A model generated the notes under the pieces. The model did not search any database, was not told the origin of the DNA, and was given only the letters and a program-made list of their open reading frames with translations. From Candidatus Pacearchaeota archaeon (GTDB lineage: Archaea; Nanobdellota; Nanobdellia; UBA10117; JAFCGI01), in contig JAFCGI010000005.1 of NCBI GenBank assembly GCA_017608235.1, positions 46,930-110,929 on the forward strand: a stretch of 64,000 nucleotides of DNA, in the 5' to 3' direction. This document shows positions 3,858-61,159 of the stretch, one piece after another; the first letter of the stretch is position 1, and each line of letters begins with the position of its first letter. The position numbers were made by a program, and so were the translations under genes.

Positions 3858-5132
3858 ATGGCTAAGATTGGAGACAAAGTTTCTGTTGAGCATAAAGATA
3901 AAAGATATGATGGTATCCTTATGCCTTCTGAAGAAGATTCTAAAGATATCTTGATTTTGAAGCTAGTTAATGGATATAATATTGGTTTTGATAAGAAAGA
4001 AACTAAAGTTAAAGTTCTAGAATCAGCAAGAGAGTATAAGTTTCCTAGTGCTAAGCTGACGAAAGACAAGAAGCTTCCTAAAATTGTGATCATTACTACT
4101 GGTGGCACAATTACGTCTAAAGTAGATTATAAAACAGGAGCAGTGCATCCTCTAATAAGACCTGAAGAACTTCTTGCTCAAGTACCAGAGTTAAGTAAGA
4201 TTGCTAATATTGAAATTAAGAATCCTTTTGCAGTACTTAGTGAAGATATGACTTCTAAGAACTGGAGAGATCTTGCTAAAGAAGTTATGAAAGCTTTAAA
4301 CTCTGATGCTATTGGAGTTATAGTAACACATGGTACTGATACTTTAGCATATACTGCCTCTGCATTAAGTTTTATGATTAAAGATCTAAATAAGCCAGTT
4401 GCATTAGTTGGAGGTCAAAGATCTTCAGATCGGGGAAGTTTTGATGGTGCGCTTAATTTGATATGTGCTGCTTACTATTGCTGTTCTGATATTGCAGAAG
4501 TTTCTGTTGTAATGCATGGAACTAGTTCTGATGATTATTGCTTAGCAATCCCAGGAACTAAAGCTAGAAAAATGCATACATCAAGACGGGATGCTTTTCG
4601 TCCTGTAAATAGTTTACCTTTTGCAAAAATCTATAACAAAGGTATGATTGAATTAATAAGAAAAGATTTCAATAAGCGTTCTACTGGAAAGGTAAAACTT
4701 GATAATAAATTTGAGAAAAAAGTAGCATTAGTTAAGTTTGCTCCTGGACAGGGTCCTGGTGTGGTAGATTATTATGCTAAACAAGGATATAAAGGAATTA
4801 TTTTAGAAGGAACTGGTTTAGGACATGTGGCTATTACTGGTTTGAATTCTTGGATAAAAAGCATACAGCAGGCTGTGAAGAAAGGAATCTTTGTTGGGAT
4901 TACTTCTCAGTGTTTATATGGAAGAACAGATTTGTTTGTCTATAGCAATGGACGGAAACTGCTGGATGCTGGCTGTATCCAGTTGGGAGATATGCTTCCT
5001 GAGACTGCCTATATAAAATTAGGATGGGCTCTTGCTCATGTTAAGAATTCTGAAGATGTTAAAAAATTGATGCTTGAGAATATTTCCAAAGAAATCTCTG
5101 AAAAGGAAGACCCAAAATCCTATTTATATTAA
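3858..5132 (+). CDS. gatD: Glu-tRNA(Gln) amidotransferase subunit D (asparaginase-like)
   Basis: Asparaginase-type motifs IVIITTGGTITS and VIVTHGTDTL. Sits in the conserved pairing with gatE nearby. Confidence 0.85.
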   Translation: MAKIGDKVSVEHKDKRYDGILMPSEEDSKDILILKLVNGYNIGFDKKETKVKVLESAREYKFPSAKLTKDKKLPKIVIITTGGTITSKVDYKTGAVHPLIRPEELLAQVPELSKIANIEIKNPFAVLSEDMTSKNWRDLAKEVMKALNSDAIGVIVTHGTDTLAYTASALSFMIKDLNKPVALVGGQRSSDRGSFDGALNLICAAYYCCSDIAEVSVVMHGTSSDDYCLAIPGTKARKMHTSRRDAFRPVNSLPFAKIYNKGMIELIRKDFNKRSTGKVKLDNKFEKKVALVKFAPGQGPGVVDYYAKQGYKGIILEGTGLGHVAITGLNSWIKSIQQAVKKGIFVGITSQCLYGRTDLFVYSNGRKLLDAGCIQLGDMLPETAYIKLGWALAHVKNSEDVKKLMLENISKEISEKEDPKSYLY

Positions 5133-5251
5133 TAATTCTTAGACTTTCTCTAGATTTTTAAACTAACTATTTAATTGTTTGTTCCAATATATAGTTTCTA
5201 ATATATAGATTCGAAAGGTTTATATATAGTTAATTACTGTTAAGTAGTACT

Positions 5252-6319
5252 ATGATAAGTAAAACTAAGGTAAAATCAGATAGACCTTTTGGTGTACACA
5301 CAATCCTTGAAACTGTAAGATATTGTCCATTAGCAGGACTAGCAATTATACAGGGATTTAAGGGAAAAGAAAGTCCTTTAAATAAATATAAGCAGGCTAT
5401 AGGCAATGAAGTACACAGATTATTTGAAATTAATCCTTTGCTTGCTCCTGAAATTTTAGAAAGGAATATGTCTAGTATGAGTTTAGAAGATAGATTTAAT
5501 CTTAATACTGAACAAGAAATACTTACTCCTGAAGGAGACTTTATTATTCCTGAAAAAACAAAACTTCATACTAATCTATGCAGTATTAGATCTTCATTAA
5601 CAACAAGTAGACAAAGCAGAACACTTAGAATAAATCCTAGATTAAGTTTAGTTAACATTCCATTTAGAACTGCCTATAATAATTATAGTGCTTTACCTCA
5701 TTTAGGAAAGCTTGGTAGAGATGGTTGTGCTGAGTTGCTTTCTTATTGGGGAGCTAACGGAATTGAAGATAGAAATAAAAAAATCGTTAGCAGCGGATTT
5801 GTAGGAGCTCCAGATCATGTTTTCAGTTTTAGACATCCAAAAATTCCTGAAATGGGAAAACAAGTTGTAGCTGAGTTTAAAACTTATGGTCCTGGATTTA
5901 ATCATGATATTAATAGATTACAGGTAGAGTTATATATGCATATGCTTGATGAAAAAAACAAATCAGAAGGTAATCTAAATATTAGTGTAGAAGGATGTTT
6001 ACTTTATCAAGGATTAACTATGCCTAAAACAGCTAGTGGTAGTAAAAGTCAATCTCAAGAACATAGTAAATTGTTTCCTATTTATCCAAATAAAAAAAAT
6101 ATAGAGCTTGCGATAAAAGCAAGAAGTGATCTTATTAAAGTTATTAATAATGATTATGATACAAACTTCTTTGAAAGAGATTGCAAAAAAGATGAAAGCT
6201 ATTGTAAAAAAATAAGATGTCCTCATGCTGAAGCTTGTTATGGAGATAAAAGCTTAGAATATATAAAAAGATGTAAATCTAGCAGATCTAAGTTATATAA
6301 TACCAAAATTATAGCTTAA
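5252..6319 (+). CDS. Cas4-like / RecB-family PD-(D/E)XK nuclease with a predicted Fe-S cysteine cluster (DUF83-like), lying between gatD and gatE
   Basis: N-terminal Cys (RYCPLAG). Nuclease motifs PDHVF ... AEFKT ... QVELYMHM (D, ExK, QxxxY). C-terminal cysteine cluster CKKIRCPHAEAC. Confidence 0.5.
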   Translation: MISKTKVKSDRPFGVHTILETVRYCPLAGLAIIQGFKGKESPLNKYKQAIGNEVHRLFEINPLLAPEILERNMSSMSLEDRFNLNTEQEILTPEGDFIIPEKTKLHTNLCSIRSSLTTSRQSRTLRINPRLSLVNIPFRTAYNNYSALPHLGKLGRDGCAELLSYWGANGIEDRNKKIVSSGFVGAPDHVFSFRHPKIPEMGKQVVAEFKTYGPGFNHDINRLQVELYMHMLDEKNKSEGNLNISVEGCLLYQGLTMPKTASGSKSQSQEHSKLFPIYPNKKNIELAIKARSDLIKVINNDYDTNFFERDCKKDESYCKKIRCPHAEACYGDKSLEYIKRCKSSRSKLYNTKIIA

Positions 6320-6373
6320 TCTAAATAACTTGAAAAAGAAATAATTATATTTAACTAATTTTCTTTTATTTTT

Positions 6374-7816
6374 ATGACAGATTTTGATTATACTAAATTA
6401 GGATTTAAATCTGGGTTAGAGATTCATCAGAGACTAAAATCTCACAAATTGTTTTGTGATTGTAGTTCTGATATGGCTAAGACTGATTTTAGTATTGAAG
6501 CTATGAGAAAGCTTAGAGCAACTCCTGGAGAATTGGGAAAGATAGATATTGCTGCTGCGTTTGAGGCAGCAAAGGAACAAGAGTTTATTTATCATGGTTA
6601 TAAAGATGAATCTTGTCTAGTGGAGTGGGATGAAGAACCACCGCATCTAATTAATCAAGAAGCTCTGAATATTGCAATTAAGATTGCTATGCTTTTGAAT
6701 TGTAATATTGTTAAAAATATACAGGTTATGAGAAAAACTGTTCTTGATGGTTCTAATACAAGTGGTTTTCAGAGAACCATGCTGATAGGAACAGATGGGT
6801 TTATTGATACTAGTTTTGGCAAGGTTGGAATTAAATATATGATTCTTGAAGAGGAAGCAGCAAAGAATCTTGGCGAGGAAAAAGGAAGGAAAGTTTGGGG
6901 ATTGAACAGATTAGGAATTCCATTAGTTGAGATTGTAACAGATCCTGATATGAAAAATCCTGAACAAGTAAAAGAAGTCGCTGAAAAAATTGGCTTGATG
7001 TTAAGATCTACTGGCTTGGTTCTTAGGGGCTTAGGTACAATTAGACAAGATATTAATGTTTCAATAAAAAAAGGAGATAGAACTGAGATAAAAGGTGTAC
7101 AAGATATAAGGTTAGTTAAAAAAGTCATAGATTCTGAAATTCAAAGACAGCTTGATCTTATCTTTAAAAAGAAAAAAATAGAGAGAACAGTAAGAAGTGC
7201 ATTAGCTGATGGTTCTACAAAATTTATGAGGCCCTTACCTGGTGGAGCAAGACTTTATCCTGAAACAGATCATCCTTTGATTATATTAGATAATAAGAAA
7301 CTTGCAAAAATAAAGAAAGAACTTCCTGAACCTTTAGAAAAGAAAAAAGCTAGACTTGAAAAATTAAATATAAGTAAAGATCTTGTTAAGCAGATTTTAC
7401 ATTCTACTTATTTAGAGTTTTTTGAATTCTTAGTTAAGAATTATAAGAATGTAAGGCCTAGTATAATTGCTAAGCTTTTGTTCTCAATTCCTAAAGAAGT
7501 TGAAAAGAAACTAGGAATCATTAAGGGGGAATTTTCAGAAGAACATTTTTTAGAAATTCTAGAACTACTAGACAAAGGAAGGGTAGCTAAAGAATCAGTA
7601 TTAGATATTATGGTTGAGGTTGCTAAAGGTAATCAAATTAGTAAGATTTGGAAGGATTACAAAATGCTTTCTGATTCTGAAATCAAGAAAAAAGTAGAGG
7701 AGATAAAAAAGAAAAACAAGGATGCTCCTGAAAATAAGATTATTGGAATAATAATGGGTGAACTTCGTGGGAAAGCTGATGCTCAGAAGATCTTAAAAAT
7801 AGTGAAAAGCAAATAA
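6374..7816 (+). CDS. gatE: Glu-tRNA(Gln) amidotransferase subunit E
   Basis: N-terminus MTDFDYTKLGFKSGLEIHQRL is the typical GatE/GatB start. 480 aa with a GatB/YqeY-like C-terminal domain. Confidence 0.85.
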   Translation: MTDFDYTKLGFKSGLEIHQRLKSHKLFCDCSSDMAKTDFSIEAMRKLRATPGELGKIDIAAAFEAAKEQEFIYHGYKDESCLVEWDEEPPHLINQEALNIAIKIAMLLNCNIVKNIQVMRKTVLDGSNTSGFQRTMLIGTDGFIDTSFGKVGIKYMILEEEAAKNLGEEKGRKVWGLNRLGIPLVEIVTDPDMKNPEQVKEVAEKIGLMLRSTGLVLRGLGTIRQDINVSIKKGDRTEIKGVQDIRLVKKVIDSEIQRQLDLIFKKKKIERTVRSALADGSTKFMRPLPGGARLYPETDHPLIILDNKKLAKIKKELPEPLEKKKARLEKLNISKDLVKQILHSTYLEFFEFLVKNYKNVRPSIIAKLLFSIPKEVEKKLGIIKGEFSEEHFLEILELLDKGRVAKESVLDIMVEVAKGNQISKIWKDYKMLSDSEIKKKVEEIKKKNKDAPENKIIGIIMGELRGKADAQKILKIVKSK

Positions 7817-26152: not shown

Positions 26153-27607
26153 ATGAATGGCCAAAAAAATTTTTTATGCCTGGTTAGCATAATTATATTT
26201 GGAATTTTTTCTCTAAATTTAGTTTCCATGCCAGTAGAGGCTGTTCAAGATATTATTTTAGACCATACTGTAATTGATAATGATATTTATTCAAATGAAA
26301 GTGCAAAATTTTCTATATTGCTTGAAAACAAACAAGATTCTATTGAACAAGTACAGATCTCTGTATCAGGAATTGCCTGGACTTTAAGTGCAGATTCTTT
26401 TGTATATGATTTGTCTCCTAGAGAATCTGTGGAATTTGATATTGAATTATTCCCACCAAAATCAGTTACTTTAGGATCTTATGCTTTGAAGTTGTTAGCT
26501 ACAACTGCAGATGGAGAAGTTACTGAAGAGATCATATTAGTAAATGTAAACAAAATAATTGAAGAACCAGTATTAAGTTTAGATTTAGATATTCCTGAAG
26601 AAGTTAGTCCTGGTGAAAAATTTAATGTGGTTATAGATGTAACAAACAATGGAAGAGATGCAGTACCTAATGTTGAAGCATATGTTAAATCTGAATTGTT
26701 TGATGAAGTAGGAATTGAAAGACTCGGAACTCTGGAATTAGGAACAACAGAGAATGCATTCAATATTGAAGTTGACATTCCTAAAGATAAAGAACCTAGA
26801 GATTATGATGTTGAAATTGGTGTAGCTCAAGGTTATGATATATTAATAAAAACTACAGAGCAAATCAAAGTATTGCCTGCTTCAGATATTGCAATCAGTG
26901 AAAATATTGAAAAAGGATTCCTAAAAAGGAGCTATGTTGTTACTTTAGTAAACCAAGGTAATACAATAGTAAAAGATGAATATATTGTTAATCTTAAATC
27001 TTTTGAGAATAATTTCTTTAAAGGGGAGCCAGCACCAGATAGAAAGGAACTTATTGATGGCAAAAGAGAAGTAGCTTGGATGTATAATTTAGCTCCTAAT
27101 GAGATACTTACCATTAGATATAGTATTTCTTATTGGCCATTGTTATTAATTATTTTATTGTTAGTAGGATCTTTTAGTGCAGTATTTTTCTATATTAACA
27201 CAAGCATTAGCATAGATAAGAGAATTTTATTTGCTGAAGAGAAAGGACTAAAATTTGTAAAAATACAGCTACATATTAAGAATAAAAGTGGAAGCAGGCT
27301 AAAAAATGTAAATTTAGTTGATACTATTCCTAGTCCTTTAAAACTTCTTAAGGAATTTGGAACCATAGTACCAGATGATGTACATAAAGAAGAAAGTAAA
27401 ACTAAACTAAGGTGGAAGTTTGAAGCCTTAGAATCTAATGAAGAGAGAGTTATATCTTATGGCATTAGATCTGGATTAAGCATAATTGGAAAAATAAATC
27501 TTCCAGAAGCAAAAATGAGATTCCAAAAGTCTGGAGTATGGAAAGCAACTAAATCTAATAAGCTTACTTTACAAGGTAAGACAGATGTTAATGTTGAAGA
27601 AGAGTAG
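26153..27607 (+). CDS. Cell-surface protein with N-terminal signal peptide, CARDB/DUF11-like beta domains and a C-terminal TM anchor
   Basis: N-terminal hydrophobic segment LCLVSIIIFGIFSLNLVS; NVVIDVTNNGRDAVPNVEAYV; TM segment LLLIILLLVGSFSAVFFYI near the C-terminus. Confidence 0.5.
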   Translation: MNGQKNFLCLVSIIIFGIFSLNLVSMPVEAVQDIILDHTVIDNDIYSNESAKFSILLENKQDSIEQVQISVSGIAWTLSADSFVYDLSPRESVEFDIELFPPKSVTLGSYALKLLATTADGEVTEEIILVNVNKIIEEPVLSLDLDIPEEVSPGEKFNVVIDVTNNGRDAVPNVEAYVKSELFDEVGIERLGTLELGTTENAFNIEVDIPKDKEPRDYDVEIGVAQGYDILIKTTEQIKVLPASDIAISENIEKGFLKRSYVVTLVNQGNTIVKDEYIVNLKSFENNFFKGEPAPDRKELIDGKREVAWMYNLAPNEILTIRYSISYWPLLLIILLLVGSFSAVFFYINTSISIDKRILFAEEKGLKFVKIQLHIKNKSGSRLKNVNLVDTIPSPLKLLKEFGTIVPDDVHKEESKTKLRWKFEALESNEERVISYGIRSGLSIIGKINLPEAKMRFQKSGVWKATKSNKLTLQGKTDVNVEEE

Positions 27608-27680
27608 TTTAGAATACTTTTATAGCTATTTTTAGGAGAACGTAACTTTTTTAAGGAGGTATTTAGGTGTTCTATATATT

Positions 27681-27784
27681 CCCGCCTTAGCTCAACCTGG
27701 CAGAGCGATCGGCTGTAGTTTGTTACTCGCTTAACGAAGCGAGCAGAACCCGATGTGTTCCTGGTTCAAATCCGGGAGGCGGGA
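27681..27784 (+). tRNA. tRNA-Tyr (anticodon GTA) with a canonical 29-nt intron after position 37
   Basis: Acceptor CCCGCCT/AGGCGGG, giving the C1:G72 pair characteristic of archaeal tRNA-Tyr. Anticodon stem ATCGG/CCGAT with loop CTGTAG|intron|A. T-arm CCTGG-TTCAAAT-CCGGG. Confidence 0.7.
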
Positions 27785-27978
27785 CTTTTTCTTAACTTAG
27801 AAGTTTAAGTACATTGTTACCTTAATTGGTCTTTTGAGAGTAGTGTTTGACCCGCATTATATGATTAAAATGGTCTCTAAATTTCTAAGAAAACCGATGT
27901 AAAACAAAAGGACAAATCGCTATGCTTAGACCAAGTTAGCACCGAAAAGCTTTTAAAGTTACTATTACAAAGTAAAAC

Positions 27979-28662
27979 ATGAACTTAAGAGAAGCTATAT
28001 CTCAAAAATTGAACTGCGTGTTCAATCGAATATTAGTACCTGGAAACGATAGCTCGTACTCTCTTGATATGCTTTTAGAAGGAATTCCTAAGTTAGAGAA
28101 TAGCAACTTCTTAGAAATAGGTTGCGGAGATAATCCGCTGTTCTCCGACGCATTTTATCACACGCTTTTTTATATGGGACTAAAGAAAGAAGATATTCTA
28201 AAGAAAATGACTTTGTCAGATAAGGAAAATCGGGTTAAAGACATGAATGGAAATAGACATTACGAACCCTCTTGGCCAAAAGAGTTTTCCGATAGATTTG
28301 TAATTGAAGATGCAACAAACTTAGATTTTGGTAACGGACAATTTAATATTGTCGCTGCAGGTCGGCTTTTAAATAATTTAGAGTTTGATGACGACAACGA
28401 TGAGGTTAGTCAAGTACTTGGAGAAATACACCGAATTCTAACTCCGCATGGTTATTTTGTTGGAGATATCCCTTTTTGTAGAGGTAAGCGAATACGAGAA
28501 ATACCTAGGGCGCTAAAAAGCGATATGGGTAAACTCAAAAATTACACAAAAGCAATTGAAGATGCGGGCTTTGAATTTGTAATAAGAGGACTCGGGCAAA
28601 ATAGTTGTATCTATAGAGAACCATTTATTAGAAGTTTATACTTCCAAGCTAAGAAGATTTAG
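27979..28662 (+). CDS. Class I SAM-dependent methyltransferase, cargo gene of the IS element
   Basis: Motif I FLEIGCGDNP. Local GC is noticeably higher than the flanking chromosome. Confidence 0.6.
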   Translation: MNLREAISQKLNCVFNRILVPGNDSSYSLDMLLEGIPKLENSNFLEIGCGDNPLFSDAFYHTLFYMGLKKEDILKKMTLSDKENRVKDMNGNRHYEPSWPKEFSDRFVIEDATNLDFGNGQFNIVAAGRLLNNLEFDDDNDEVSQVLGEIHRILTPHGYFVGDIPFCRGKRIREIPRALKSDMGKLKNYTKAIEDAGFEFVIRGLGQNSCIYREPFIRSLYFQAKKI

Positions 28663-29560
28663 TATTTTCTGCTAATTCTATAAGACTTAACCACTTGTTA
28701 TGACCTAAATTTAGGTGAATTTTAGCTTCTTCCGATGGCGTTTTATCAATTCCTTGATGTCGAGTAATATAATTGTAGTAAATTTCCCAACCTTTTAGTA
28801 TAGATCTTGCACTCTCCACGGAGCCATGAAAACCACGCATAGTTTTTGTTCTTGCTCTTTGACCATTATGCAATCTCTCGATAGGATAATTAAAGCCTTC
28901 ACCTTGACGCGCATTTACTTGGTTATGAAAAACCTTGTAGCGACCAAGTTTGTTGCTATATCCAAACGTCTTTTTAACTACGTTCGTATACGCCATAAAT
29001 CCATCTGTTGTAATAATTTTAATGTTATCTTCACCCTTCTTTTTGATATCAACTAGAACTTTCTTAATCTCTTCTTTGGTGCGAGATTCGGCGTACTGCG
29101 CCGCTACTAAGAACCGCGTTTTAGTATCGATACTATCGATAAACCAATTCTTAGCCACCCCTAAATGCTTTTTAGGATGTTTCCTTCTGTGGTACTCTAC
29201 TTCATCTACTTGAACTTCTTGTCCGAGTTCTGGTTTTAAATTATTAGTAAACTTTGCTATAACTTGAGAATATTTTATAACCCACAAATAGATTGATTTG
29301 TGACTTGATTTGTGAGGATAGAAAGCTTGTAAATGTTCCTGAACTTTCCTTGTAGATATCCCTCTGAAGAATAAATCTAAACAGAGTGTTATTTTCTGTG
29401 GGGAATTTCGCATACGATAGAATGCATCTCTCGGAATAAACTTTTTATCACAGCTTTTGCAATAATATCTCTGTTGCTTTCCATGTGCTTGAGTATGAAA
29501 ATATCCTCTCTTGACTGTGTTTTGTTTCTTACAGTGAGGACATTGTAATTTGCTCTTCAT
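28649..29560 (-). CDS. IS1595-family (ISH4-like) DDE transposase with an N-terminal zinc ribbon
   Basis: N-terminal CPHCKK...CKSCDKKF. The DDE region VQVDEVEY ... ITTDGFMAYT ... and the C-terminal HNGQRARTKTMRGFHGSVESARSILKGWEIYYNY match the IS1595 pattern. Confidence 0.65.
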   Translation of the reverse strand: MKSKLQCPHCKKQNTVKRGYFHTQAHGKQQRYYCKSCDKKFIPRDAFYRMRNSPQKITLCLDLFFRGISTRKVQEHLQAFYPHKSSHKSIYLWVIKYSQVIAKFTNNLKPELGQEVQVDEVEYHRRKHPKKHLGVAKNWFIDSIDTKTRFLVAAQYAESRTKEEIKKVLVDIKKKGEDNIKIITTDGFMAYTNVVKKTFGYSNKLGRYKVFHNQVNARQGEGFNYPIERLHNGQRARTKTMRGFHGSVESARSILKGWEIYYNYITRHQGIDKTPSEEAKIHLNLGHNKWLSLIELAENTKSS

Positions 29561-30015
29561 ACATATTCATGTACATGAAACTATATAAACCTTTCGGTAC
29601 ATGAATTATAACTAAATCACTACGCGTAGCACCTATGTTTAAAATAGAAAACTAGTCTTTTTCTATAACTATCTTTCCATTATCATTGCTAGCTCTAAGG
29701 TCTTTTCCTAAAAGGTCGGACTCTTTAACGATATTTTTAGGTAAAATGATGATATAGCGAGTGTATTTTGTATCACCTACTTTTTTATCAAGGACTTCTC
29801 GGATCTTCATATCAAGGTTATTACTTAGAACTATTTAAAATTATCGGTACATGAAAAGCCCAATTAAGGTAACAGTGTAAAGTTTAAGTTAACTTTAAAA
29901 ACTCTAAAAATTAGTAAAAAATCAGAATAAATCAAATAAATTTAGTAAAATTCATTTAAAAACAAAACATTTAAAAGCAAAGAATCAAAAAAGACCGAAA
30001 GATTATTAAAGCTGT

Positions 30016-30132
30016 GCCTTGGTGGTGTAGTTTGGTCTATCATATGAGCCTGTCGAAAATATAAATATTTATTTGATATTTATAGTAAGCTCGTGACCCG
30101 GGTTCAAATCCCGGCCAAGGCGTTTGATAAAA
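30016..30132 (+). tRNA. tRNA-Asp (anticodon GTC) with a roughly 32-nt AT-rich intron at the anticodon loop
   Basis: Acceptor GCCTTGG/CCAAGGC+G. D-arm TGGTGTAGTTTGGTCTATCAT is archaeal Asp-like. Anticodon stem TGAGC/GCTCG with loop CTGTCG(A). T-arm CCGGG-TTCAAAT-CCCGG. Confidence 0.7.
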
Positions 30133-30147
30133 AAGGGGTGTGCTAGT

Positions 30148-30390
30148 TTGTCTGAAGAAAAAGAATCTGACTTTTCAAAACATGTTTTGATTCCCACACA
30201 TAAAATTATGAAGGAAGAAGCTGTTAATAAGCTCCTTGAAAAATATAATATATCATTACTTCAATTGCCATCAATCTTAAAATCTGATCCAATGATTAAA
30301 TTATTAAATGCTAAAGTAAATGATGTTATTGAGATTATTAGAGCAGGATCTACTGGCAAATATAAATATTATAGACGAGTTACAGAATGA
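30148..30390 (+). CDS. rpoH: DNA-directed RNA polymerase subunit H (Rpb5 homolog)
   Basis: HVLIPTHKIMKEEAVNKLLEKYNISLLQLPSI...DPMIKLLNAKVNDVIEIIR. Start taken as the TTG at 30148 (SD AAGGGGTG) to avoid overlap with tRNA-Asp; the ORF track begins at 30124. Confidence 0.7.
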   Translation: MSEEKESDFSKHVLIPTHKIMKEEAVNKLLEKYNISLLQLPSILKSDPMIKLLNAKVNDVIEIIRAGSTGKYKYYRRVTE

Positions 30391-44077: not shown

Positions 44078-44207
44078 AGCCCCGAGTGGGAGTCGAACCC
44101 ACGACCTGCGGTTATCTTGCCTTTGCTGGTTTCCTTCACCAGCGTTTCTTTCTTGAAGAAAGGCTATGTTACAAGACCGCCGCTCTACCAGACTGAGCTA
44201 TCGAGGC
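44078..44207 (-). tRNA. tRNA-Thr (anticodon TGT) with a roughly 56-nt intron at the anticodon loop
   Basis: Reverse complement: acceptor GCCTCGA/TCGGGGC+T; D-arm GCTCAGTCTGGTAGAGC; anticodon stem GCGGT/ACCGC with loop CTTGTA|intron|A; T-arm GTGGG-TTCGACT-CCCAC. Confidence 0.65.
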
Positions 44208-57708: not shown

Positions 57709-57823
57709 TGCCGAAGGAGGGATTTGAACCCTCGACTTCCAGCTTACTTACGCAGTAAGCATACAGAAAACAACTTTTCTGCGATATGAGACTGGCACTC
57801 TAGCCAGACTGAGTTACTTCGGC
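57709..57823 (-). tRNA. tRNA-Met, elongator type (anticodon CAT; an Ile2-type cannot be excluded), with a roughly 40-nt intron at the anticodon loop
   Basis: Reverse complement: acceptor GCCGAAG/CTTCGGC+A; D-arm ACTCAGTCTGGCTAGAGT; anticodon stem CCAGT/GCTGG with loop CTCATA|intron|A; T-arm GAGGG-TTCAAAT-CCCTC. Confidence 0.65.
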
Positions 57824-61022: not shown

Positions 61023-61145
61023 GCGGTCGTAGTGTAGTGGTATCACTCAAGCTTGCCATAATCCTTCTTAAGAAGAAGCGTCGGCAGAAGAAAAGACTGT
61101 TGGTTGCAAAGAGCTTGCGACTCGGGTTCAAATCCCGGCGACCGC
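61023..61145 (+). tRNA. tRNA-Gly (anticodon GCC) with a roughly 50-nt intron at the anticodon loop
   Basis: Acceptor GCGGTCG/CGACCGC+A. D-arm GTGTAGTGGTATCAC. Anticodon stem CAAGC/GCTTG with loop TTGCCA|intron|A. T-arm TCGGG-TTCAAAT-CCCGG. Confidence 0.65.
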
Positions 61146-61159
61146 ATTTAATTAAAAAT

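What the first reader, a model, noticed from the sequence alone, without database searches (positions are those of the whole stretch)
27681..29888. Freshly inserted IS1595-like element with a methyltransferase passenger gene, immediately downstream of tRNA-Tyr
Twenty-bp terminal inverted repeats (one mismatch) and a perfect 9-bp direct repeat AAGTTTAAG on both sides delimit a 2070-bp element starting 26 bp after tRNA-Tyr. It carries a DDE transposase with an N-terminal zinc ribbon plus a SAM-dependent methyltransferase (cargo, higher GC). Repeated cggtacatgaa motifs lie between the transposase start and IRR. An intact target-site duplication implies recent transposition; cargo-bearing IS1595-type elements are comparatively rare.
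Basis: seen in the sequence. Interest (0 to 1): 0.55.

Follow-up and report, generated by a model that had tools for sequence, protein, structure and literature searches.

The report
Cargo-carrying archaeal transposon, not IS1595
A real, intact 2,070-bp jumping gene sits between two tRNA genes of a low-GC archaeon; it is not IS1595 but belongs to a widespread, seemingly uncatalogued group of archaeal (DPANN) transposons that routinely carry extra genes and a tiny probable repressor of their own.

Summary
The element is window 27810-29879 (2,070 bp). Its inverted repeats match 19/20 (24/26 when extended) and a perfect 9-bp duplication, AAGTTTAAG, flanks it. It starts 25 nt after an intron-bearing tRNA-Tyr.

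The family call does not hold. The window transposase has no IS1595 match. Its catalytic core is IS6-like, its N-terminus is IS1/IS1595-like, and it passes no curated NCBIfam family cut-off.

Twenty relatives that I delimited in DPANN genomes share the repeat consensus T[AG][CT]ATTGTT...TTAA.GGG. Eighteen of the 21 elements (window included) have perfect 9-bp duplications, and two more have 8/9. They are 2.0-6.9 kb long around a 0.9-kb transposase gene, so accessory genes are the rule. DNA methyltransferases occur in 8 of 21.

The "cggtacatgaa" repeats are TTCATGTAC sites flanking the TATA boxes of that gene and of the transposase. The same sites follow the small gene outside transposons, and they differ in elements with divergent small proteins. 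I therefore read them as its operators (inferred).

The passenger is a rare class I SAM methyltransferase of unknown substrate. The whole element is compositionally foreign. No empty site or second copy was found.

The parts
27681..27784 (+). tRNA-Tyr(GUA) with a 30-nt intron at 37/38. This is a host gene, not part of the element. An oligo-T run follows at 27786-27790.
   Evidence: Rfam RF00005, 47.5 bits. Anticodon, C1-G72 pair and intron read directly from the sequence.
27801..27809 (.). Left copy of the 9-bp target-site duplication AAGTTTAAG
27810..27835 (+). IRL, the terminal inverted repeat: 20-nt core TACATTGTTACCTTAATTGG, extending to 26 nt
   Evidence: (I1). Matches the family consensus seen in 20 related elements.
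27941..27959 (+). Putative BRE/TATA promoter of the methyltransferase, ACCGAAAAGCTTTTAAAGT. The TATA centre lies about 26 nt before the ATG, which implies a leaderless mRNA.
   Evidence: Read from the sequence. The identical 19-mer precedes a different cargo gene in L001. Promoter function is inferred.
27979..28662 (+). Passenger gene: a 227-aa class I SAM-dependent methyltransferase of unknown substrate. It is convergent with the transposase gene and overlaps it by 14 bp.
   Evidence: Pfam Methyltransf_11, 29 bits against a cut-off of 21.2. Only 24 distant relatives among 1.84e9 representatives. AF2 model pLDDT 84. Foldseek matches generic class I methyltransferases.
28649..29560 (-). DDE transposase, 303 aa: N-terminal CxxC...CxxC zinc ribbon (C7, C10, C34, C37) and catalytic residues D119, D186, E228 plus R235
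29566..29579 (.). Perfect 14-bp palindrome TTCATGTACATGAA between the transposase TATA box and its ATG. Putative operator made of two inverted half-sites.
   Evidence: Equivalent, element-specific sites occur in L004, L010, L019, L036 and L041.
29581..29605 (-). Transposase promoter region. On the minus strand it reads TTCATGTACCGA (29594-29605), then AAGG, then TTTATATAG (TATA box, 29581-29589).
   Evidence: (D1)
29652..29810 (-). 52-aa SpoVT/AbrB-like small protein, the putative repressor.
   Evidence: ORF. 106 homologues at about 60-83% identity. 22 of 30 members hit PF04014. hhalign to clear AbrB/MazE-type genes of sister elements gives E 2e-4.
29831..29855 (-). Promoter region of the small gene. 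On the minus strand it reads TTCATGTACCGA (29844-29855), then a TATA box ATTTTAAATAG. It directly abuts the inner edge of IRR.
   Evidence: (D1)
29854..29879 (-). IRR, the terminal inverted repeat. Reverse complement: TACACTGTTACCTTAATTGGGCTTTT.
29880..29888 (.). Right copy of the 9-bp target-site duplication AAGTTTAAG
30016..30122 (+). Next host gene: an intron-bearing tRNA that I read as tRNA-Asp(GUC). rpoH and rpoB follow it.
   Evidence: Rfam, 46.2 bits. Anticodon read from the sequence. RpoH by Pfam, 3e-22.

Best explanation
Window 27810-29879 is one complete insertion of a DDE-transposase mobile element with extra genes (a "transporter IS"). It belongs to a DPANN-archaeal group related to IS6 and IS1.

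Proposed working, step by step:
1. The 303-aa transposase has a zinc ribbon and a DDE core. It recognises the 20-26-bp terminal repeats and joins the element to a target cut with a 9-bp stagger. Gap repair gives the AAGTTTAAG duplication. The anatomy is shown; the chemistry is inferred from what is known of DDE transposases.
2. The insertion lies in a neutral spacer, after the oligo-T that follows tRNA-Tyr and 127 nt before the next tRNA.
3. All three genes have their own BRE/TATA box about 25 nt before the ATG, which implies leaderless transcripts (inferred).
4. The 52-aa SpoVT/AbrB-like protein probably binds the TTCATGTAC sites that bracket the TATA boxes of its own gene and of the transposase gene. 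It would thus repress both and keep transposition low (inferred from comparative evidence).
5. The methyltransferase is cargo with its own promoter. It is a class I SAM enzyme of a very rare family, it is not an N6/N4 DNA methylase, and its substrate is unknown.
6. The whole unit came from a donor of higher GC than the host.
For: Element boundaries:
- The inverted repeats are unique in the window and the 9-bp duplication abuts both ends.
- Twenty related elements in DPANN genomes share the same repeat consensus. Of the 21 elements (window included), 18 have perfect 9/9 duplications, 2 have 8/9, and one sits on an element-sized contig.

Transposase:
- 985 homologues, those that carry a source name being DPANN archaea.
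- Invariant CxxC x2 and D119/D186/E228/R235.
- IS6 model 73.9 bits over the full model length, IS1 model 53.8 bits.
- 26/26 relatives hit IS6, 25/26 hit IS1, 8/26 hit IS1595.
- tblastn against annotated plasmids: residues 50-291 align to IS6-family genes, 5-126 to IS1-family genes, 1-75 to the IS1595 zinc ribbon.

Accessory genes in the family:
- Elements are 2.0-6.9 kb long around a 0.9-kb transposase gene.
- N6_N4 DNA methylases occur in 8 of 21; other genes include an HNH nuclease, TrmB and AsnC regulators, a radical SAM enzyme and further class I methyltransferases.

Small protein and its sites:
- 106 homologues; 22 of 30 hit PF04014.
- TTCATGTAC occurs only in the two promoter regions of the element.
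- The same TTCATGTACCGA-TATA-TTCATGT arrangement precedes homologous small genes where no transposase is near (L038).
- It also occurs in L041, whose transposase is only 33% identical while its small protein is 73% identical.
- Elements with divergent small proteins have different sites at the same positions: TTCGGATACC in L004 and TTCGGGYRCC in L010 and L019 in both promoters, and GGTACC in the one promoter examined in L028.

Foreign origin: GC3 is 0.295 and 0.297 for the two element genes, against 0.182 +/- 0.033 (maximum 0.251) for 38 host ORFs.
Against: - There is no second copy in the window.
- All three proteins are singletons at 90% identity among about 15 billion proteins.
- No empty site was found, so mobility and recency are inferred, not observed.
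- No curated NCBIfam family model passes its cut-off, so mechanism cannot be borrowed safely from IS6 or IS1.
- The SpoVT/AbrB assignment rests on sub-threshold hits (17 bits against a cut-off of 24.7 for the window protein).
- DNA binding was not tested.
- The operator evidence comes from about ten loci inspected by eye, not from a statistical test.
Confidence: 0.8

Rival explanations
1. It is an IS1595-family element with a passenger gene.
For: The N-terminal CxxC...CxxC ribbon matches the shared IS1/IS1595 zinc-binding domain (NF050000, 23.7 bits, below its cut-off of 28). Residues 1-75 align at 36% to an IS1595-like ISBwe1 gene. Eight of 26 relatives give weak IS1595 hits. Passenger-bearing IS1595 subgroups exist (my recollection of ISfinder).
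Against: The window protein has no hit to the IS1595 transposase model at E<=1, and no Pfam IS1595 DDE domain at E<=0.1. The catalytic core aligns to IS6-family genes. The duplication is 9 bp across the family, not 8.
Confidence: 0.05
2. It is simply an archaeal member of the IS6 family and moves as IS26 does, by replicative cointegrate formation.
For: IS6 is the best-scoring curated model over its full length. All 26 relatives hit it. Pfam DDE_Tnp_IS240 scores 27.3 against a cut-off of 27. The E..H...R.R motif resembles the E--F---K-R signature described for archaeal 'IS6' elements (PMC6807381).
Against: The NCBIfam score (73.9) is far below the family cut-off (125). IS6 elements have 8-bp repeats, about 14-bp ends that mostly start with GG, are about 0.8 kb long, and include only one known passenger-bearing member (PMC7986276). 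Here the duplication is 9 bp, the 20-26-bp ends start TACA/TGCA/TGTA, and the elements are 2-7 kb with accessory genes. Harmer and Hall already argue that archaeal 'IS6' elements do not belong in that family. Perfect duplications around nearly every single copy fit simple insertion better (inference).
Confidence: 0.2
3. The TTCATGTAC repeats are subterminal transposase-binding sites or plain promoter duplicates, not operators of the small protein.
For: One copy abuts the inner edge of IRR (29854-29855). The transposase also has DNA-binding domains. No binding data exist.
Against: The same motif brackets the TATA box of homologous small genes in loci with no related transposase (L038). It stays with the small protein when the transposase is only 33% identical (L041). 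There is no copy near IRL. The motif differs in step with the small-protein type.
Confidence: 0.15
4. The element is an immobile relic. It inserted once, and the intact look is only a lack of time or selection to decay. The methyltransferase may already be a host-used gene.
For: It is a single copy. No other copy at >=90% identity exists in public data. No empty site was found.
Against: All invariant transposase residues are present. Both repeats and the duplication are intact. GC3 has not ameliorated. All promoters and operators are intact, as in the close relative L036.
Confidence: 0.2

Closest known systems
IS6 (IS6/IS26) family, especially the contested archaeal 'IS6' clades
   Same: It is the best-matching DDE catalytic core. 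It has a single transposase ORF, terminal inverted repeats, and an E..(H/F)...(K/R).R motif after the catalytic E.
   Different: The window protein scores below the NCBIfam family cut-off. The duplication is 9 bp rather than 8. The 20-26-bp ends begin TACA/TGCA/TGTA rather than about 14 bp beginning GG. An N-terminal zinc ribbon is present. Elements are 2-7 kb with accessory genes, whereas the IS6 review lists one passenger-bearing member.
IS1 family (including single-ORF archaeal members)
   Same: The N-terminal zinc ribbon and adjacent region align to IS1-family genes at 29-30%. The IS1 model scores 53.8 bits. Zn_ribbon_InsA hits 14 of 26 relatives. A 9-bp duplication is typical of IS1 (my knowledge). 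From memory, ISfinder lists an ISMhu11 subgroup of up to about 4.6 kb with passenger genes; I could not check this (one search found nothing).
   Different: The score is below the cut-off of 100. The catalytic half aligns better to IS6. The ends do not start with GG (my knowledge of IS1 ends).
IS1595 family with passenger genes (ISPna2+ and ISNwi1+ types; my recollection of ISfinder)
   Same: A zinc-ribbon N-terminus, and the idea of an IS carrying cargo inside its terminal repeats.
   Different: The window protein has no match to the IS1595 transposase models. The duplication is 9 bp rather than 8.
SpoVT/AbrB-type (MazE-like) small DNA-binding proteins acting as autorepressors
   Same: Size, PF04014 similarity, and repeated or palindromic sites over its own promoter.
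   Different: All hits are below the Pfam cut-off. No toxin partner is present. Here the protein is wired to a transposase promoter. Binding was not tested.

Membership tests
IS1595 family | Transposase matches the IS1595 transposase models (NCBIfam NF033547, Pfam DDE_Tnp_IS1595) | tested here: not met
   No hit at E<=1 or at E<=0.1. Only 8 of 26 relatives give weak hits.
IS1595 family | N-terminal zinc ribbon | tested here: met
   C7, C10, C34 and C37 are invariant. NF050000 scores 23.7 bits, below its cut-off of 28, and hits 25 of 26 relatives. IS1 shares this feature, so it does not discriminate.
IS1595 family | 8-bp target duplication (ISfinder, from memory) | tested here: not met
   9 bp here, and a perfect 9 bp in 18 of the 21 delimited elements, window included.
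IS6/IS26 family | Transposase reaches the curated family score | tested here: not met
   NF033587 scores 73.9 bits against a cut-off of 125. Pfam PF13610 scores 27.3 against 27, which is borderline.
IS6/IS26 family | 8-bp direct repeats and about 14-bp terminal repeats that mostly begin GG (PMC7986276, PMC6807381) | tested here: not met
   9-bp repeats, and 20-26-bp ends beginning TACA, TGCA or TGTA.
IS6/IS26 family | Compact IS of about 0.8 kb without passenger genes (one exception known) | tested here: not met
   2,070 bp with three genes here; relatives are 2.0-6.9 kb.
IS6/IS26 family | Transposition through cointegrates | not testable with these tools
   Needs experiments or population read data.
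IS1 family | Transposase reaches the curated family score | tested here: not met
   NF033558 scores 53.8 bits against a cut-off of 100.
IS1 family | 8-9-bp target duplication (my knowledge) | tested here: met
   9 bp.
IS1 family | Ends of the GGnnnTG type (ISfinder, from memory) | tested here: not met
   The ends are T[AG][CT]ATTG. The reference consensus itself could not be checked here.
Transporter IS (an IS with passenger genes inside its terminal repeats) | One pair of terminal repeats and one target duplication enclose both the transposase and non-transposition genes | tested here: met
Class I SAM-dependent methyltransferases (the passenger) | Domain score above the curated cut-off, a GxGxG SAM-binding motif and a Rossmann-like fold | tested here: met
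   PF08241 scores 29 bits against 21.2. EIGCGDN is seen in the sequence. AF2 pLDDT is 84. Foldseek gives probability 1.0 to many class I methyltransferases.
N6/N4 DNA methyltransferases (the usual cargo in this family) | PF01555 match and a (D/N/S)PP(Y/F) motif | tested here: not met
   No PF01555 hit and no such motif in the sequence. Sister elements do carry PF01555 genes.
SpoVT/AbrB (PF04014) DNA-binding domain (the small protein) | Domain score above the curated cut-off | tested here: inconclusive
   17.1 bits against 24.7 for the window protein. 22 of 30 homologues hit at E<=0.05, best 1e-5. hhalign to sister AbrB/MazE genes gives E 2e-4 at 47% probability. No PDB hit.

The most novel reading that the evidence does not exclude
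The window element is one member of an uncatalogued, DPANN-wide family of DDE transposons. The family is defined by T[AG][CT]ATTGTT...TTAA.GGG ends, a 9-bp duplication, and a transposase combining an IS1-type zinc ribbon with an IS6-type core. In this family cargo is the norm, often DNA methylases or restriction-modification genes. Each element also carries a swappable small-repressor and operator cassette (AbrB-like, zinc-ribbon or RHH) that controls the transposase. On this reading the family would be a main vehicle for gene exchange among these tiny-genome archaea.
Probability: 0.45. Interest if true: 0.6.

Novelty: new variant of a known kind. Interest (0 to 1): 0.45.

Why it matters
DPANN archaea have very small genomes and are thought to depend on hosts and on gene exchange, yet their mobile elements are barely catalogued. 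This locus leads to a coherent family with clear ends and a fixed 9-bp duplication. The family moves methylases, nucleases, regulators and metabolic genes between Pacearchaeota, Woesearchaeota and Nanoarchaeota genomes.

Three uses follow:
1. The repeat consensus and duplication length give annotators a simple rule for delimiting these elements, and so for separating imported genes from core genes.
2. The pairing of a 52-aa protein with a short operator that changes from element to element is a compact, testable case of transposase control and of protein-DNA recognition in archaea.
3. For this window specifically, the methyltransferase should be treated as imported cargo, not as host metabolism.

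Tried and rejected
- Empty site: an exact 25-mer spanning the reconstructed empty site found nothing in metagenome contigs. A protein-seeded search with the upstream 484-aa neighbour found no relatives.
- Source contig: a look-up by the exact transposase had no record. Cluster look-up gave no names or accessions.
- Methyltransferase homologues: the word-seeded search found only the protein itself. The single-sequence AF2 model was useless (pLDDT 34). The alignment-based model worked, but Foldseek gave only generic class I hits, so no substrate could be assigned.
- Methyltransferase context: its closest relative, P0122 (38% identity), lies outside any IS. It is unrelated to the class I methyltransferases of L038 and L021 beyond the shared fold.
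- tRNA targeting as a family trait: rejected. Of 19 related elements scanned, the nearest tRNA was 326 bp away (L034) and the rest were more than 1 kb away or had none.
- Target-site consensus from 20 duplications: only an A/T-rich centre, no motif.
- Generic promoter pattern search: the pattern was mis-specified and gave no hits, so it was not used.
- PDB profile search for the small protein: no meaningful hit.
- Viral contigs: one distant transposase hit with no recognisable ends.
- Literature: nothing for 'ISMhu11'. No paper on such DPANN elements was found. One query had invalid syntax.
Full report

Yes. Reading window 27400-30200 and running the repeat finder (I1) gives IRL at 27810-27829 (TACATTGTTACCTTAATTGG). 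IRR is at 29860-29879 (reverse complement TACACTGTTACCTTAATTGG). They differ at one base, and the repeat extends to 26 nt at 92%. At up to three mismatches these are the only two matches in the 64 kb, against 0.02 expected.

AAGTTTAAG occurs exactly twice in the window, at 27801-27809 and 29880-29888, abutting the two ends. The 9-mer alone is not rare (2.5 expected by chance). A 9/9 match exactly at both ends has a chance of about 1e-5 at this base composition (my arithmetic). The element is 2,070 bp.

**2. The tRNA context.**

Rfam finds the upstream tRNA at 27681-27784. Default ARAGORN misses it, and its intron mode mis-assigns the anticodon. Read directly, it has a C1-G72 acceptor pair, anticodon GTA, a 30-nt intron at position 37/38 and discriminator A, so it is tRNA-Tyr. 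An oligo-T run follows at 27786-27790.

The element begins 25 nt after the tRNA. It ends 127 nt before a second intron-bearing tRNA (30016-30122), which I read as tRNA-Asp. rpoH and a split rpoB follow. The host is therefore a low-GC (30%) archaeon, and the insertion lies in a spacer between two tRNA genes.

**3. Gene content.**

There are three ORFs, not two.
- A 227-aa methyltransferase at 27979-28662 (+).
- A 303-aa transposase at 28649-29560 (-). It is convergent with the methyltransferase and overlaps it by 14 bp.
- A 52-aa ORF at 29652-29810 (-), between the transposase gene and IRR.

**4. Which transposase family?**

The window protein does not match the IS1595 models, in NCBIfam at E<=1 or in Pfam at E<=0.1. 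Its best matches are as follows.
- IS6: NF033587, 73.9 bits, covering model positions 1-200 of 202, against a cut-off of 125.
- IS6 in Pfam: DDE_Tnp_IS240, 27.3 bits against a cut-off of 27.
- IS1: 53.8 bits against a cut-off of 100.
- The shared IS1/IS1595 zinc-binding domain: 23.7 bits against a cut-off of 28.

Across 26 relatives, 26 hit IS6, 25 hit IS1, 25 hit the IS1/IS1595 zinc ribbon, 14 hit Zn_ribbon_InsA, and only 8 hit IS1595.

Against annotated plasmids, residues 50-291 align at 24-25% to IS6-family genes. Residues 5-126 align at 29-30% to IS1-family genes. Residues 1-75 align at 36% to an IS1595-like gene.

The family alignment has invariant C7, C10, C34, C37, D119, D186, E228 and R235, so the window copy looks catalytically intact.

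The 985 homologues are 76% identical at most. Wherever a source gives a name, they come from Pacearchaeota or Nanoarchaeota MAGs, some labelled 'IS1/IS6 family transposase'. The genome scan adds Woesearchaeota MAGs.

**5. Family anatomy from related loci.**

I fetched loci around relatives. I then searched for inverted repeats flanking the transposase gene. Twenty further elements could be delimited.

All have ends of the form T[AG][CT]ATTGTT(ACC/AAG/GCA...)TTAA.GGG. Counting the window element, 18 of the 21 elements have perfect 9-bp duplications. Examples are L005 CCATAACCC, L011 TGGTGGTAT, L012 TGCAGAGCC, L001 ATTAACACA and L034 CTGCATTAG. Two have 8/9 (L008, L028). One (L004) is a contig barely longer than the element.

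A 9-bp duplication and these ends are therefore family traits. The IS6 literature describes 8-bp repeats, about 14-bp ends that mostly start GG, a length of about 0.8 kb, and a single passenger-bearing member (PMC7986276). It also already questions whether archaeal 'IS6' elements belong in that family (PMC6807381).

**6. Accessory genes are the rule.**

The elements are 2,013-6,924 bp long around a 0.9-kb transposase gene. Clustering their ORFs and scanning Pfam gives the following.
- N6_N4 DNA methylases in 8 of 21 elements, some fused to RAMA or Mrr-type nuclease domains.
- An HNH nuclease.
- TrmB and AsnC regulators.
- P-loop ATPases.
- An SDH-type protease.
- A radical SAM enzyme next to a class I methyltransferase (L021).
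- An eight-gene cargo (L006).

Nearly every element also has one or two small predicted DNA-binding genes next to the transposase gene. These are a ~50-aa zinc-ribbon protein (8 elements), the 52-aa type seen here (5), clear AbrB/MazE-type proteins (PF04014, 3e-12), or RHH proteins.

**7. The small protein and the repeated motif.**

The 52-aa ORF has 106 homologues at about 60-83% identity, all unnamed or labelled 'hypothetical protein'. Of 30 tested, 22 hit the SpoVT/AbrB domain PF04014 at E<=0.05. A profile comparison with the clear AbrB/MazE genes of sister elements gives E 2e-4.

On the minus strand the two promoters read as follows.
- Small gene: IRR, then TTCATGTACCGA, then TAATTTTAAATAG, then 20 nt, then ATG.
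- Transposase: TTCATGTACCGA, then AAGGTTTATATAG, then TT, then TCATGTACATGA, then ATATGT, then ATG.

TTCATGTAC occurs four times in the whole window, all in these two regions. Two of the four form the perfect palindrome at 29566-29579.

Four comparative observations bear on what these sites are.
- The same arrangement occurs in the closest relative, L036.
- It occurs in L041, whose transposase is only 33% identical while its small protein is 73% identical.
- It occurs in front of homologous small genes in L038, with a weaker version in L039. Neither locus has a related transposase nearby.
- Elements with divergent small proteins carry different sequences at the same positions. L004 has TTCGGATACC/TTCGGTATCC and L010 and L019 have TTCGGGYRCC, in both promoters. 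In L028, only the small-gene promoter was examined; it has AAGGTAC/GGTACC.

They bracket the TATA boxes of its own gene and of the transposase gene, so the protein would repress both. This is inferred; no binding was tested.

**8. The passenger methyltransferase.**

It is a class I SAM enzyme (Methyltransf_11, 29 bits against 21.2), with motif I reading EIGCGDN. It is very rare.
- The word-seeded search of 5.8e9 proteins found only the protein itself.
- A full phmmer scan of 1.84e9 representatives found 24 relatives, at most 38% identical.
- The closest relative lies outside any IS.

With that alignment AF2 gives pLDDT 84. Foldseek returns generic small-molecule and RNA class I methyltransferases (AtmM/RebM, BioC, ArsM, Bud23) at TM about 0.5. 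No substrate can be assigned. It lacks the (D/N/S)PP(Y/F) motif and any PF01555 match, so it is not the DNA methylase type common in sister elements.

Its putative promoter, ACCGAAAAGCTTTTAAAGT, is identical to the one that precedes a different cargo gene in L001.

**9. Origin and age.**

Element GC is 34.4% against 30.4% for the rest of the window. GC3 is 0.295 for the methyltransferase and 0.297 for the transposase. The 38 host ORFs average 0.182 +/- 0.033, with a maximum of 0.251.

The whole unit is therefore foreign, and the passenger and transposase share a compositional history. This corrects the 'cargo, higher GC' remark. Together with the perfect duplication and intact genes, it fits a fairly recent arrival.

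Three things remain missing: a second copy in the window, any other copy at >=90% identity in public data, and an empty site.

**10. Verdict.**

The tRNA proximity is not a family habit.

The element is best described as a member of a DPANN-specific group related to IS6 and IS1. I found no description of this group in the searchable literature, and it meets no curated NCBIfam family threshold.

It is a new variant of a known kind of element and is moderately interesting. The interest lies mainly in the family-level picture and in the repressor-operator cassette.

Noticed in passing
window 27681-27784, 30016-30122, 44078-44207, 57709-57823, 61023-61146: Rfam finds five intron-bearing tRNA genes that default ARAGORN misses. 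ARAGORN's intron mode mis-assigns the anticodons of the two nearest the element.
   Followed up: partly
L020 7046-7065 (element 5087-7099): A remnant end almost identical to the window element's repeat (CACATTGTTACCTTAATTGG) sits 12 bp inside L020's own, different right end. This suggests nested or recombined ends of two subfamilies.
   Followed up: no
L001, L002, L034 (all from GCA_053535835.1): One MAG carries at least three different members of the family. Their transposases are 70-73% identical to the window's, each with different cargo and a different type of small regulator.
   Followed up: partly
L006 4239-11162: A 6.9-kb family member with a perfect duplication (GCAAAATTG). Its eight-gene cargo includes a class I methyltransferase and a putative pyridine-nucleotide oxidoreductase (judged from the sequence; not scanned against Pfam).
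   Followed up: no
L037 2835-2993, L038 6001-6159, L039 2148-2309: Homologues of the 52-aa protein occur without any related transposase. In L038 the same TTCATGTACCGA-TATA-TTCATGT promoter precedes the gene, amid a run of small ORFs with an HNH_3 gene that looks virus- or plasmid-like.
   Followed up: partly
L041 and L042, about 3913-5150: The same unit (small gene convergent with a 33%-identical transposase gene) has different left flanks in two contigs. The flanks diverge exactly at an end-like sequence, TGAGATGTTAAGTTAGCG. A Metallophos gene may be its cargo.
   Followed up: partly
window 29620-29629: A perfect 10-bp palindrome, CTACGCGTAG, lies between the stop of the small gene and the transposase promoter. 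It is absent at the same place in the close relative L036.
   Followed up: no
L051 6001-6876 (IMG/VR contig IMGVR_UViG_3300033153_011099): This is the only viral-collection contig encoding a relative of the transposase (45% identity). No family-type ends were found around it.
   Followed up: partly
window 27941-27959 and L001 6945-6963: An identical 19-nt BRE/TATA-like sequence precedes two unrelated cargo genes, in opposite orientation relative to the transposase gene. It could be a shared strong promoter or a sign of cassette-like cargo exchange.
   Followed up: partly
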